Source: Eledone cirrhosa (lineage: Eukaryota). Taken from it: a stretch of 64,000 nucleotides of DNA. The notes beneath the pieces are model-generated. The model did not search any database, was not told the DNA's origin, and saw nothing but the letters and a program-made list of their open reading frames with translations. Made by a program: the position numbers and the translations under genes. The stretch covers positions 74,958,001 through 75,022,000 of the forward strand of contig OZ024740.1 in assembly GCA_964016885.1 (NCBI GenBank), given 5' to 3'. This document shows positions 246-63,604 of the stretch, piece after piece; position 1 is the first letter of the stretch; every line of letters begins with the position of its first letter.

Positions 246-3200
246 TGACATATTTACATATATACATACATGCATACATACATACATGCTTACATGCATA
301 ACTTCTTATAACATTAATAATACATACATACATGCTTACAAGCATAAATACATATATACATACATAATACATACACACACACATACATACATACACTCAT
401 ACAAAAATATATACATACATATGTACATAGTAGATCACGAATTCCCGCAACTCAAAAATTGCAACGTAGACAAAAACACGTGTATACCGTCTGTGTGAAC
501 TAATTGCGTACGCTATGACATTGCTGCTTGCTCATTCACATATCACTTTACATGCGTCTGTATTACGTCAGAGGACTATGGGGTTTGCCCGTAGCTTTCT
601 GTAGCTCCACCACTTGCCTCCTCCGTCACATTAGATAGAAATATATGCATATGCAAAATTATTAAAATTAACAATTGGGATGATAGATACATAATAGAGA
701 TAGTTTCATACAGAGAAAGAAGGAAAACTATTAATATTAAATAAATAGTTAGTCAGATACATACTGTAGATACACACGCACAAATATAGACATAGACTTA
801 TAACGAATAGAAACCACTTGGTTAATCTGTCTTTGAATATCGGTTATATATATAAATATATATATGAATATCGGTTATATATATATATATATATATATGT
901 GTGTGTGTGTGTGTGTTTGTACACATATATATATAAATATATATATATATATATAAACATGTATATATATATATGTCATGATATACATACACACACTATA
1001 TATATATATATATATATAAAATATATATATATATGAATATATATATATATATATATATATATATATATATATATATATATATACATATATATATATATAT
1101 ATACATATATACAAATATATATATATATATGTATATATATACACATATATATAAATATATGTATACAAATATACATATATATGTATATATATATACACAC
1201 ACATATATATATATATATATATATATATATACACACACATATATATATATATACACACACATGTATATATATATACCCTCCCCAAGTATAACAATATATA
1301 TATATATATATATATATATATATATATATATATATATATATACATATGTACAAGTAGATACAAATGTAAATAGGAAGGTGCCATACAGCTCTGACGATGA
1401 CAGTGCACACAGACATACACACACACCGACACACACTTACACACACACACACCTACATACATACACACTTACACACGCACACGCACATTCTCTCACAGTA
1501 TTTCCCTTTCTAGCTATATCATTGAACATATTCTACTTGCACTTGAGACAACATTACTAAAATGGGGCATGTTTAATCTGTCCTTCAAAAGAGAAAGAAA
1601 GAGAGAGGGAAAGAGCGGGTGAAAGTGAGAGGGACAGAGAGAGTAGAGGAGAGGAGGAGATAGAGAATGGAAAGAGAGAGAGAGAGAGAGTGACAGAGAT
1701 ATGCAGACAGTCAAATGTACATAAACAAGTATAAGAATGCATGAATTCATATATATATATATATATATATATATATATATATATATATATATATATATAT
1801 ATATATATATATATATATATATATATATATATATATATATATATATATATATATATATATATATATATATTTATATATATATATATATATATATATATAT
1901 TTATATTTATATATAATATATATACATTTATATATTTGGGGAGGGTCATATTTGCGTAATATTGCCAGAATTAATAACAGAACACACTCACTGTTTGGTT
2001 GGTTTTCGCTTCTCGCTGTCTTTTATATATATATATCTGCGATCTAACTTACTCGGTCCTCAATGTTGCCATTGACTGACCGGCGGTCAAAAATAATACA
2101 GATACAATATAGACAAACACATATATATATAGTTTACATAATTTACATAAATCTTTCGTTGCACATCTGCAACATCGTCAGTGGTGTTATATTCATTGTT
2201 CCTCCTGTTGTGTTGTATGTCTACGCCATTTTTTTTGTTCAGTCTGTCTATATATTTATTTATTTATTTGCTTGTTTGTTTATCTTATTTTATTTTGTCT
2301 TCTTTGCGCATGCGTTTGCGTGTGTGTATAGTGTTATGTGTGATGTGTGACTAGTGTGTATAGTGTTGTGTCTGCTGGGTGACTAGTGTGTGTTTATGTG
2401 CTTGTGTATGTATTTATTTATCTTATTTTATTTAATTTAATTTACTTATTTATTTATACTTCTCTTAGGTCAGTGTTGTTTGTTTGGGTGTTGTTGTTGT
2501 TCCACTCATTCTTTCTGTTTAGCTTTATATATATATATATATATATATATATATATATATATATATATATATATATATATATTTGCATATTCATATACAT
2601 ATACACGTATATATATATATATATATATATATATATACATATATGAATGTGTGAGGTGTGTGTGTGTGTGTGTGTGTGTGTGGGGGGGTATATGTGTGTG
2701 GGCGCGCGTGTATATATATATATATATATATATATACATATATAATAGAGTAGGAATGAGGCATCAATATAGCAACAATGTTTATTTATATATATATATA
2801 TGTATATATATATATATATATATATATATATATATATATATATATATATATATATATATATATATATATATATATATATATATATATATATATATATATA
2901 TATATATATGAAAAAGTATGACCCCGACGGCAGAGCTCAAGCCGTTTCGACGGCTATATATGTATAGATAAATGTACATATATGTATCTATATGTATATA
3001 TATATATATATATATATTTATATATACATATATGTATATGTGTATATAAATTTATGTATATACATATGATATATATAATACATGTAATACATAATATATA
3101 TATTATATATCTTGTATATGTATCATATATATACATACACATATGCATGTGTGTATATAAGTATATATGTATGTATGTCTGAATGTGTGTGTATGTATAT

Positions 3201-3636
3201 GTATGTCTGTATGTCTGTATGTCTGTATGTGTGTATGTTTATATATATATGTATGTATGTATATCTGTATGTCTGAATGTCTGTATGTATGTGTGTATGT
3301 ATGTATGTCTGTATGTATGTATGTATGTGTGTGTATGTGTATGTGTGTATGTGTATGTGTGTATGTCTGTATGTATGTGTGTGTATGTGTATGTGTGTAT
3401 GTGTATGTCTGTATCTCTGTATGAATGTATGTCTGTATGTATGTGTGTGTATGTGTATGTGTGTATGTGTATGTGTGTATGTGTATGTGTATGTCTGTAT
3501 GTCTGTATGTATGTCTGTATGTGTGTGTGTGTATATATATATATGTATGCATGTATGTGTGTACGTATGTATGTATGTATGTATGTATGTATGTATGTAT
3601 GTATGTATGTATGTATGCATGTATGTATTTATGTGT

Positions 3637-4245
3637 GTCAGGTCACCAGTTGGTGCTACTGGTAACATGTATCCCAGTACAACCTGTCTTATGGTCGGGT
3701 CGTTGGCGACTAAACTGGCAACCCCACCAAGGTTTCTTGGTGAGGAGGCTGACTTTGGACATCCTGCAGGACTAAAAACAAAACCTGTCAAAGGGCAAAG
3801 GAGCTTTTAAGAGTCAATGGCCATCCAAAATCACCGGGAGAGATGACCCCTTAGCCTTTGTCAAGGTAGAATTCTAGGAGGAGGAAAACTCTGATATAAC
3901 ACCTGCAACTCTGATGGTATCCAATGATGTTGACTTGTTCTTCTTTTTGGTAAATATCATCTTGGTTAAGAGAGTGGGACTGGCTTTGTGCAGTGCCTTT
4001 GCTCACTATAAAAGCTTCACGGCACAGGCATTGCTTTATATCTGGAGATCTCTCTGCACTTGTCGTCACATGGTACCATGGGCCCAGCACTATGTGTCAA
4101 TAATTGTCACAAGTGTAGTGTTTGTACCAAAGTTTTCAAGTCGCTGGCCGGACTGAAAAGTCACACTCGTTCAGCACATCGGTAGGGGTTCTCCTACATG
4201 GATATAAAGTAGTGGCCGTACTCGAAAACGAGTTGGCAGCCACCA
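3637..4245 (+). mobile_element. ~610-bp non-coding retroposon (RTE-derived SINE-like) with (ATGT)n tail, copy 1
   Basis: Near-identical to 43594-44203 (reverse strand). Flanked by (ATGT)n. Contains RTE 5'UTR-like motifs (ggcaaccccacc; ggaggaggaaaactctgatataac). 3' end ...gagttggcagccacc(atgt)n. Confidence 0.7.
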
Positions 4246-5389
4246 TGTATGTATGTATGTATGTATGTATGTATGTATGTAAGTATTTATGTATGTGTGT
4301 ATGTATGTATGTATGTATGTATGTATGTATGCATGTATGTGTGTGTGTATGTATGTATGTGTGTATGTATGTATGTGTGTATGTATGTATGTATGTATGT
4401 ATGTGTGTATGTATGTATGTATGTATGTATGTATGTATGTGTGTATGTATGTATGTGTGTATGTATGTATGTGTGTATGTATGTATGTGTGTATGTATGT
4501 GTGTGTGTATGTATGTATGTGTGTATGTATGTATGTATGTATGTATGTATGTATGTATGTATGTATGTATGTGTGTATGTATGTATGTGTGTATGTATGT
4601 ATGTATGTGTGTATGTATGTATGTGTGTATGTATGTGTGTATGTATGTATGTATGTATGTATGTATGTATGTATGTGTGTGTGTATGTATGTATGTGTGT
4701 ATGTATGTATGTATGTATGTATGTATGCATGTATGTGTGTATGTATGTATGTGTGTATGTATGTATGTATGTATGTATGTATGTGTGTATGTATGTATGT
4801 GTGTATGTATGTATGTATGTGTGTATGTATGTATGTATGTATGTATGTATGTATGTATGTATGTGTGTATGTATGTATGTGTGTATGTATGTATGTGTGT
4901 ATGTATGTATGTGTGTGTGTATGCATGTATTTATGTATGTATGTATGTATGTATGTATGTATGTATGTATGTATGTATGCATGTATGTGTGTATGTATGT
5001 ATGTGTGTATGTATGTATGTATGTATGTGTGTATGTATGTATGTGTGTATGTATGTATGTATGTATGTATGTGTGTATGTATGTATGTATGTATGTATGT
5101 ATGTATGTATGTATGTATGTGTGTATGTATGTATGTGTGTATGTATGTATGTGTGTATGTATGTATGTGTGTGTGTATGTATGTATGTGTGTATGTATGT
5201 ATGTATGTATGTATGTATGTGTGTATGTATGTATGTATGTGTGTATGTATGTATGTGTGTATGTATGTATGTATGTATGTATGTGTGTATGTATGTATGT
5301 ATGTATGTATGTATGTGTGTATGTATGTATGTGTGTATGTATGTATGTATGTATGTATGTATGTATGTGTGTATGTATGTATGTGTGTA
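4246..5389. repeat. (ATGT)n/(GT)n compound microsatellite, ~1.1 kb
   Basis: Seen directly. Similar arrays at 3160-3636, 39430-40272, 44204-44912 and 45990-46580. Confidence 0.95.
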
Positions 5390-5466
5390 GACAAAAGAGA
5401 CAGACAGACTGATGAGAAGATAAGGAAAAGAGAACTAGGACATGAAGAATTGAATGAAAATACTTT

Positions 5467-62396: not shown

Positions 62397-62634
62397 ATAT
62401 ATATATATATATATAACCAAAGATTAGTATGGTTCGTTGATTACTCAATGAATACAATTTTACAATAGATTAGAAGCACTCAACCGTGAAGTTTTCCTGG
62501 AGTTTTTAATATTATTCAAAATATTAACAAATAAAAATATTCTCATAATCAAAATATATACTTTATTATTGGTATTACTACCAATACTGGAATTTAATAA
62601 TCAAGACCGTAGCGGTATGTCATATACCAAATCA

Positions 62635-62704
62635 TATATTTTGTCTGATGAGGACGTACTGAAAAAACAACACAGTACCTCTGAAATATTTATAATAAAG
62701 TATA
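62635..62704 (+). ncRNA. Minimal hammerhead (family F) in fold-back element 62415-62752
   Basis: tatattttgt-CTGATGA-ggacgtactg...cagtacctct-GAAA-tattta-TA-ataaagtata. Inverted arms 62510-62568 and 62693-62752. The left arm shares gcactcaac...ctggagt with 40600-40625. Confidence 0.65.
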
Positions 62705-63405
62705 TATTTTGATTATGAGAATATTTTTCATTTGTTAATATTTTGAATAATATATATATATATATATATATATATAAACAAATTAAAAGACTGAGAAATG
62801 AGAAAGTAATGTGATGTGTTGGAATATATGATAAATCAAATGTAATGAAACGAATGGAAAATGATAAAAAACAAACAGGACAATACAGAACGGGAAGATA
62901 AAACTGGAAACATTAACAACGAAACATTTCAGTCTCCAGCCGAGCACGTAAACTCACGATTTTTGGTCAGGAAACCATAGCTTAGCGTCCTATTTTTTGC
63001 CAGGAAACCATAGCTTAACGTCCTATCATGACGATAGTTCTAAATTAAAGCTGCCGTTTGGTAGAGATGAACAGTACGAAGGAAAGATAACTATTATAGG
63101 TGCGTTCAATTTATAGACATAAAACAAGTAAATTTGACGAACATAAAAATTGTGAAGAAACACCTGGAGTAAAATCAATCATGGACAGGTAGAAACAAAA
63201 GGGGTCTATACCGATTTATTACACACACACGCGCGCGCGCGCACACACAACACATATTTACACGTACAGCCACAAAGATACACATACACCCTCACTCTCA
63301 AACGCACACACATAAACACACGCACACTCATATAGGATTATATGTGTGTATATGTATGTATGCATGTATGTATGCATGGATATATATATATATATTTATA
63401 TATAT

Positions 63406-63604
63406 GAAAGGAGTCAGGACCTCGACGGCTGAGCTCCGGCCGTTTCTACAGCTAGATCCGAACTGTTCGGAGCTAGCTGTCGAAACGGCCGGAGCTCAGC
63501 TGTCGAGGTCCTGACTCTTTTCCTATTACCCACTCTACAACCCTACGTATTGAGTACTCTGGTGCGTTATGGTCCACCTGGTATCTTACCACACTCTCTT
63601 TGTT
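63406..63604 (+). mobile_element. Family F1 copy (cggccgg subfamily) in (TA)n
   Basis: ggagtcaggacctcgacggctgagctccggccgtttc...gaaacggccggagctcagctgtcgaggtcctgactc hairpin plus tail. Confidence 0.8.

What the first reader, a model, noticed from the sequence alone, without database searches (positions are those of the whole stretch)
2910..63604. Most abundant fold-back family F1 (~13 pieces): palindrome centred on what looks like a headless hammerhead stem II
Seen: hairpin core ...gccgtttcgacggcta-loop-tagccgtcGAAAcggc... with variable loop and arm length (about 50-105 bp) and a constant ~90-bp tail on one side only. Nearly all pieces abut (TA)n, and there are two subfamilies (cggcttga, cggccgga). 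One-sided tails do not fit a TIR MITE. Inference: cDNA snap-back at an internal hairpin replaced the 5' part (including any CUGANGA) with an inverted copy, as at PLE inverted termini. No copy here has CUGANGA or a canonical UH site, so ribozyme ancestry is unproven.
Basis: partly seen in the sequence, partly recalled or inferred. Interest (0 to 1): 0.7.

Follow-up and report, generated by a model that had tools for sequence, protein, structure and literature searches.

The report
Head-to-head stubs of Hydra-clade Penelope
These short mirror-image repeats are stubs of an abundant Penelope-like jumping gene (tens of thousands of arm copies in this genome), and their ends suggest that each was likely built on landing from two short DNA copies of the start of the element's RNA, one per cut strand, which would explain the lopsided inverted ends long seen in this group.

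Summary
Observation confirmed: 14 pieces in the window, with an 80-bp (not 90-bp) one-sided tail. The parent exists. F1 is the terminal repeat (pLTR) of an RT + GIY-YIG Penelope-like element with Hydra-clade motifs; head-to-head copies grade from about 100 bp to 4 kb. A 23-mer of the arm has 70,154 exact hits. The hammerhead reading holds but needs correcting: every arm carries GAAA, stem III and a GUC site, and the parent core is the U3-A8 variant (UUGANAA), not CUGANGA. The central hairpin is an inversion junction. 132 of 141 pairs have exactly one tail, and the tailless arm is often the longer, which copy-back onto one cDNA cannot give. 82 of 103 unselected arms stop within 23 nt upstream of GAAA, at an initiator-like TT|AGTC, often behind a non-parental G (22 of 81 short arms, 0 of 93 long). 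Best reading: two cDNAs primed at two start sites 80 nt apart run off the capped RNA start and join head to head. The RNA start is inferred; no RNA data. The shape is published; the scan reported this mechanism before on other DNA.

The parts
7074..7259 (+). Type copy: inverted tailless arm + direct tailed arm, (TA)n on both sides
7074..7125 (-). Inverted arm; outer end at the proximal end site (before the tail), inner end 12 nt upstream of GAAA
7124..7139 (+). 3' strand of hammerhead stem II; begins 2 nt downstream of the inferred RNA start; 2-nt overlap with the inverted arm
7140..7162 (+). Hammerhead GAAA, stem III (5 bp, palindromic loop) and GUC cleavage triplet (7160-7162)
   Evidence: sequence
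7163..7179 (+). 3' strand of stem I up to the proximal end site
7180..7259 (+). 80-bp tail; in a tandem parent it runs on into the ORF
   Evidence: L129/L250
2910..2956 (-). Half arm without tail
6809..6845 (-). Tail fragment, likely split from the 6943 copy by microsatellite-rich sequence
   Evidence: inference
6943..7054 (.). Palindrome with both ends on (TA)n, no adjoining tail
37338..37442 (+). Very short pair: inverted arm starts at the cleavage position, tailed arm keeps only its last bases + tail
37469..37658 (-). Palindrome, tail on the left; tailed arm reaches the inferred +1 A
40854..40952 (+). Arm end + tail only
52230..52279 (+). Diverged single arm; stem III loop changed but still palindromic
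52343..52527 (-). Palindrome, tail on the left
57938..58188 (.). Subfamily 2 palindrome with tail sequence on both arms (exception)
58248..58439 (-). Palindrome, tail on the left
61473..61538 (-). Tail fragment between (TA)n runs
62221..62395 (+). Subfamily 2 copy, internally deleted inverted arm + tailed arm
63406..63604 (+). Subfamily 2 palindrome with tail

Best explanation
F1 copies are the shortest head-to-head insertions of a Hydra-clade Penelope-like retrotransposon in (TA)n, and each was likely built from two reverse transcripts, one primed on each strand of the cut, that likely ran off the capped start of the element's RNA and were joined. Shown: parent anatomy (pLTR, tail, RT + GIY-YIG ORF, 3' UTR, pLTR); two fixed outer ends 80 nt apart, used one each; independent inner ends; a pile-up of inner ends about 18-22 nt upstream of GAAA; excess non-parental G there. 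Inferred: the two outer ends are internal RT start sites, as measured in vitro for Poseidon; the promoter lies inside the hammerhead, so a transcript has the start sites only about 60 and 140 nt from its cap; priming at this 5' copy gives stubs, while priming at a downstream pLTR gives the long copies; the G records the cap; the ends join by microhomology or short filler.
For: Parent: recurrent non-palindromic upstream sequence. 1,560 and 3,104 hits to the two core variants. ORFs with YRDD RT and C-terminal GIY-YIG lie between inverted ends in 6 of 23 loci examined. L250 is pLTR-tail-ORF-UTR-pLTR-tail-(TA)n. One tail per insertion: 132 of 141 pairs; 36 of 40 unselected pairs, p=9e-8 against independent choice. 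Either arm can be longer: short pairs 33 tailed / 36 tailless / 23 equal; long pairs 8 / 20 / 2 of 30 (read; 4 rows left out). Inner ends of 103 unselected arms: 82 at or within -23, 5 at -28 to -35, 0 at -36 to -53, 16 through the core. Base before the A at -18: short arms T34 C23 G22 A2, long arms T83 C9 A1 G0; Fisher p=9e-9. by eye: G 86, A 14 of 100; after removing cases explained by the partner arm, G 28, A 12. The unrelated family F3 (window 48591) stops at TT|AGTT with G 18 of 26 short arms. TTAGTY is kept in subfamily 2 while the loop around it diverges. PMC11167929: both strands cut and extended, two internal RT starts flank the tail. PMC2377424: promoter with Inr in the pLTR.
Against: No RNA data: the start site and cap are inferred. 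Much of the G excess is ambiguous, because the partner arm supplies a G at the same place (58 of 86 G cases, by eye). When both arms reach -18 with 4 or more bases between them, the next base is the parental-type T in 75 of 100 arms and G in only 11 (by eye), so the end is ragged (-18 to -22) or A-tailed. An RT can add C at any template end, capped or not (own knowledge). The TATA-like element at -31 in subfamily 1 is absent in subfamily 2, and no DPE match was seen. The boundary also lies beside an apical helix of stem II, where an RT could stall. Arms of a pair are never of different subfamilies (0 of 104; 37.8 expected), which fits one RNA read twice but also fits copy-back. Family F2 showed few short arms and no clear pile-up. 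PMC11167929 saw no strand difference in start-site use in vitro.
Confidence: 0.72

Rival explanations
1. Twin priming is right, but the short arms come from RT stalling at the hammerhead stem II structure, or from later centre deletion of long palindromes, and not from run-off at a transcription start.
For: The boundary lies in the extended stem II/loop region. Long perfect palindromes are unstable (own knowledge). Junctions carry filler and local duplications.
Against: No arm of 103 ends between -36 and -53, whereas deletion would give a smooth spread. Arms joined to (TA)n or to foreign DNA stop at the same base. The non-parental G, A-runs at the inner ends and the same YYAGTY boundary in an unrelated family point to a template end.
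Confidence: 0.12
2. One reading: one cDNA snaps back on itself at a hairpin and copies itself; the copy is then cut at a fixed site before the tail.
For: Arms of a pair always belong to the same subfamily (0 of 104 discordant). Junctions often show 2-7 nt overlaps. Some short copies parse as hairpins with 3-6 nt loops.
Against: It requires the tailed arm to be the longer one; the tailless arm is longer in 36 of 92 short and 20 of 30 long pairs. The parent's loop is not retained. It may still account for local filler.
Confidence: 0.08
3. Self-priming on an antisense template makes a head-to-head hairpin that the endonuclease resolves, leaving a tail at either end (proposal in PMC3846280).
For: Explains head-to-head orientation and lets either end carry the tail.
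Against: Does not predict that both arms end at a sense-strand initiator with a cap-like G.
Confidence: 0.05
4. F1 is a self-propagating non-autonomous hairpin element (MITE-like or retrozyme-like) copied as a unit.
For: Very high copy number; a few junction types recur.
Against: Junctions differ from copy to copy, the loop faces either way relative to the tail, sizes grade into 4-kb coding copies, and all terminal sequence belongs to the PLE pLTR. No transposase link was seen.
Confidence: 0.03

Closest known systems
Hydra clade of C-terminal EN+ Penelope-like elements, including Hydra-1_Obim (Craig et al. 2021, PMC8557442; section 11, passages and supplement rows seen)
   Same: RT followed by C-terminal GIY-YIG; RW[K/R], DKT, CxCX5C linker, no CCHH, CxxC and CxH around the conserved E and N; (TA)n target; inverted 5'-truncated copy and a tail at one end.
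   Different: A different family from Hydra-1_Obim: four DNA motifs (three of F1, one of F3) are absent from the supplement as held, and its listed hammerhead is canonical with a short stem II. F1 has a U3-A8 core, a long interrupted stem II, an 80-bp tail (30-40 bp is typical in that paper), a 3' UTR of about 1.2 kb and a clear pLTR.
Poseidon of Anolis (PAc) in vitro (Frangieh et al. 2024, PMC11167929; parts 1-2 of 4 read)
   Same: Two internal start sites flanking a tail downstream of the hammerhead; both DNA strands cut and extended; AT-rich target; hammerhead cleavage not needed.
   Different: Another clade. The paper does not describe coupled one-each use of the two sites in an insertion, nor run-off stubs ending at the cap.
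Inverted pLTR + tail structures of Adineta vaga Penelope (Arkhipova et al. 2013, PMC3846280; passages seen)
   Same: Head-to-head inverted pLTR, palindrome at the junction, tail on one side, TATA/Inr-like motifs in the pLTR.
   Different: Explained there by self-priming on an antisense template; tail 31 bp; few copies.
PLE hammerheads with U3-A8 core covariation (Cervera and de la Pena 2014, PMC4209133; parts 1-2 of 4 read)
   Same: Type I hammerhead in the pLTR, U3-A8 in place of C3-G8, large helix II, palindromic loop 3, motifs in opposite strands 100-700 bp apart.
   Different: Stem III is a full 5 bp; stem II encloses about 50 nt that hold the inferred promoter; one large subfamily has a C3.A8 mismatch.

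Membership tests
EN+ Penelope-like element | ORF with RT and GIY-YIG endonuclease linked to the repeat | tested here: met
   1,335 relatives at E<=0.001, best 40-57% identical; Pfam scan of three ORF pieces gave no hit
EN+ Penelope-like element | pLTR: direct repeat flanking the ORF in a partial tandem | tested here: met
   L129/L250
EN+ Penelope-like element | Inverted 5'-truncated copy and tail at one end | tested here: met
   132 of 141 pairs
Hydra clade | RWK-type motif, DKT, CxCX5C linker, no CCHH between GIY and YIG, CxxC and CxH around E and N | tested here: met
   read from ORFs against section 11 of PMC8557442; F1 has RWR, relatives RWK
Hydra clade | Insertion into (TA)n | tested here: met
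Hydra clade | Placement in the Hydra clade on an RT tree | not tested
   no reference set was available as stored sequence; likeness to Hydra-1_Obim judged by eye only
Type I hammerhead ribozyme (parent pLTR) | Three helices around the core, G10.1-C11.1, A15.1-U16.1, NUH triplet | tested here: met
   93.5% of cells paired, 3 stem II pairs with changes on both sides between subfamilies, slid controls 28-52% (18 related sequences, so few independent events); N7 takes all four bases
Type I hammerhead ribozyme (parent pLTR) | Paired positions 3 and 8 | tested here: inconclusive
   U3-A8 in 3,104 exact hits and in subfamily 2; C3.A8 mismatch in most listed hits of the 1,560; C3-G8 in 6
Type I hammerhead ribozyme (parent pLTR) | Rfam hammerhead match | tested here: not met
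   no hammerhead family among the 150 rows shown (parent loci) or (window)
Type I hammerhead ribozyme (parent pLTR) | Self-cleavage | not testable with these tools
   no pile-up of tailed arms at the cleavage site: 201 of 214 tails reach GAAA (sample enriched for such arms)
MITE / TIR DNA transposon | Fixed symmetric TIRs, constant interior, related transposase | tested here: not met
   asymmetric ends, unique junctions, RT-coding parent
Non-LTR retrozyme | Tandem head-to-tail units each with a complete hammerhead | tested here: not met
   copies are head-to-head and lack the 5' half of the core

The most novel reading that the evidence does not exclude
PLE insertion is an obligate two-ended reaction in which a dimeric RT uses two start sites, one per target strand, on one RNA. 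Because the promoter sits inside the hammerhead, most events are run-off copies of the capped RNA leader. The stubs then map the transcription start and both RT starts of each family from DNA alone, and placing the start inside the ribozyme leaves the mRNA's 5' copy unable to self-cleave.
Probability: 0.55. Interest if true: 0.65.

Novelty: new member of a known kind. Interest (0 to 1): 0.5.

Why it matters
The element and its shape are of a known kind. How PLEs make inverted ends and the one-sided tail is named as open in PMC8557442 and PMC11167929. Here thousands of natural products give three testable rules: one tail per insertion, either arm longer, and a shared stop at a likely capped start. 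They also explain why a genome can hold tens of thousands of MITE-like hairpins that are by-products, not a mobile family, which bears on repeat annotation. The in vitro PLE system already published could test the model directly.

Tried and rejected
(1) CUGANGA within 34 nt of GAAA: 22 hits, all chance or foreign sequence. (2) A guessed parent with perfect stem II right after the core: 7 hits against 3 control hits, no family. (3) Rfam: only repeat-driven miRNA matches among the rows shown. (4) Pfam: nothing. (5) Arms starting at the ribozyme cut: no peak; one window copy (37338) has an inverted arm starting there. (6) A 3' splice site at the boundary: rejected because arms keep the AG and the bases before it. 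(7) One RNA or two: the test of shared private variants was inconclusive and poorly bounded. (9) Empty (TA)n alleles: not tested; no related genome is held. (10) repeat finder was swamped by microsatellites. (11) Paper searches for twin priming, snap-back, cap or both-strand mechanisms in PLEs returned no paper stating this model; the library lacks most subscription papers, and Repbase was not searched.
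Full report
1. Observation. The family is real. Fourteen pieces lie between 2910 and 63604, in two subfamilies, almost all against (TA)n. The type copy 7074-7259 has an inverted arm, a direct arm and an 80-bp tail on one side. A 23-mer from the arm has 70,154 exact hits in the 3.0-Gb genome and none for the reversed control; these are arms, not insertions, and diverged copies are missed.

2. The hammerhead. A search allowing 35-65 nt between core and GAAA returned one recurring non-palindromic upstream sequence among 43 hits. 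Its core reads Y-U-G-A-N-A-A-G. Position 7 takes all four bases and position 8 is A. U3-A8 forms have 3,104 exact hits. A second pattern has 1,560 hits at one mismatch, most of those listed being C3 with A8 and only 6 C3-G8. Subfamily 2 has its own parent with U3-A8. On 18 natural copies the three helices pair in 93.5% of cells, with two-sided changes at three stem II pairs between subfamilies; these are few independent events. U3-A8 is a published PLE variant (PMC4209133, parts 1-2 read). Rfam showed no hammerhead among the listed rows. Cleavage was not tested; the C3.A8 subfamily is likely impaired (inference from the 3-8 pair, PMC11167929).

3. The parent. Core hits often come as inverted pairs 0.1-4 kb apart. 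[quoted passage not shown] L250 shows pLTR, tail, ORF, about 1.2 kb of UTR, pLTR, tail, (TA)n, and the tail runs directly into the ORF start. The protein has RWR, DKT, a CxCX5C linker, no CCHH, and CxxC and CxH around E and N, the diagnostic set of the Hydra clade, which targets (TA)n (PMC8557442 section 11). That paper lists a cephalopod member, Hydra-1_Obim, a different family. No tree was built. Pfam gave no hit; 1,335 unnamed relatives were found.

4. Outer ends. Of 141 head-to-head pairs, 132 have exactly one tail; among 40 unselected pairs, 36 do. The tailless end stops at one fixed site and the tailed end 80 nt further on. In long pairs each arm is truncated at its own point and the two meet with a few bases of overlap or filler. 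Either arm can be longer: 33 tailed, 36 tailless, 23 equal among 92 short pairs; 8, 20 and 2 among 30 long pairs (read, leaving out two double-tailed pairs, one unclassified pair and one filler case). A strand copied back from a single cDNA cannot be longer than it or gain a tail it lacks, so two primings are needed at least where the tailless arm is longer. In vitro, Poseidon cuts and extends both strands and starts at two internal sites flanking the tail (PMC11167929, parts 1-2 read). Arms of a pair never differ in subfamily (0 of 104, 37.8 expected), so both come from one RNA or one source locus; my attempt to separate these was inconclusive.

5. Inner ends. Among 103 unselected subfamily-1 arms, 82 stop at or within 23 nt upstream of GAAA, 5 at 28-35, none at 36-53, and 16 pass through the core. 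The limit is TT|AGTC (TC|AGTC in one subfamily), an initiator-like motif (consensus recalled), kept in subfamily 2 although the surrounding loop has diverged. The base before that A is G in 22 of 81 short arms and 0 of 93 long arms. Part of this is ambiguous because the partner arm can supply the G: by eye, 58 of 86 G cases are so explained, leaving 28 G against 12 A in an A-rich genome. An unrelated family in the window (F3, 48591) stops at TT|AGTT with G in 18 of 26 scripted short arms (43 of 73 by eye). Against: with both arms at -18 and a filler of 4 or more bases, 75 of 100 arms continue with the parental-type base and 11 with G (by eye), often as A/T runs of varying length; family F2 showed no clear pile-up; a TATA-like element at -31 is not conserved in subfamily 2. 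D. virilis Penelope has its promoter and Inr in the pLTR (PMC2377424, passages seen).

6. Mechanism. A transcript starting inside the 5' pLTR carries both RT start sites about 60 and 140 nt from its cap. The protein likely cuts (TA)n on both strands, primes one cDNA at each site, and both run off the RNA end, sometimes adding a C opposite the cap, and are joined head to head. Priming at a downstream pLTR would give the long copies. Shown: anatomy, coupling of the ends, pile-up, G excess. Inferred: start site, cap, order of events. No RNA run was listed and empty alleles could not be tested.

7. Novelty. The element is a new family of a known clade, and inverted pLTR plus one-sided tail is published (PMC8557442, PMC3846280). 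Six searches found no paper stating coupled twin priming with run-off at the cap; the library is incomplete. PMC13282606 (passages) counts active Penelope-like families in an octopus without describing this; bioRxiv 10.64898/2026.07.22.740005 (part 1 of 5) links retrozymes to pLTRs, and its supplements were not seen. I stated this reading before opening the scan's notes; the notes then showed the same model from other genomes and from another piece of this one. They are unreviewed and are not counted as support.

8. Verdict. Real, explained as by-products of Hydra-clade PLE insertion; PLE origin about 0.97, twin priming about 0.85, run-off at a capped start about 0.72 overall. Interest 0.5.

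Noticed in passing
window 48591-48793: Family F3: same architecture (palindrome + one-sided tail in (TA)n); short arms stop at TT|AGTT with an extra G; long parents exist. Used as a replicate.
   Followed up: partly
window 29765-29893 and 55805-55847: Family F2: palindrome + 57-bp tail; longer copies in L003, L014 carry a canonical hammerhead about 150 nt upstream; most arms seen are long, unlike F1.
   Followed up: partly
window 59844-60269: 426-bp palindrome with a canonical CUGACGA...GAAA hammerhead on each arm (60046 minus, 60084 plus), flanked by (TA)n.
   Followed up: no
window 60962-61390: About 420-bp palindrome of another family between (TA)n runs.
   Followed up: no
window 61990-62127 (+), 21730-21930 (-), 40690-40805 (-), 59682-59814 (-), 2132-2200 (-): Further hammerhead-like cores in (TA)n-flanked pieces of at least three other families.
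   Followed up: no
window 37338-37468: Two F1 insertions share one (TA)n run tail to tail, making a secondary 194-bp palindrome; F1 and sister families often stack in the same microsatellite (also 6943/7074).
   Followed up: partly
G000 core hits: A large subfamily has a C3.A8 mismatch in the ribozyme core yet spread to about 1,500 long arms; six copies have C3-G8. Suggests cleavage is dispensable for spread.
   Followed up: partly
window 32572-32999: Two inverted copies of an abundant SINE-like repeat back to back.
   Followed up: no
window 26435-26533: 99-bp element with short terminal inverted repeats and TA flanks, like a true Tc1/mariner-type MITE (label recalled).
   Followed up: no
L009, L012, L011, L003, L014: Chimeras in which an F1 arm is joined head to head to the arm of a different hammerhead family, as if two different RNAs or successive insertions met at one junction.
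   Followed up: no
L091 6404-7063: GIY-YIG C-terminus of a second Hydra-like family.
   Followed up: no
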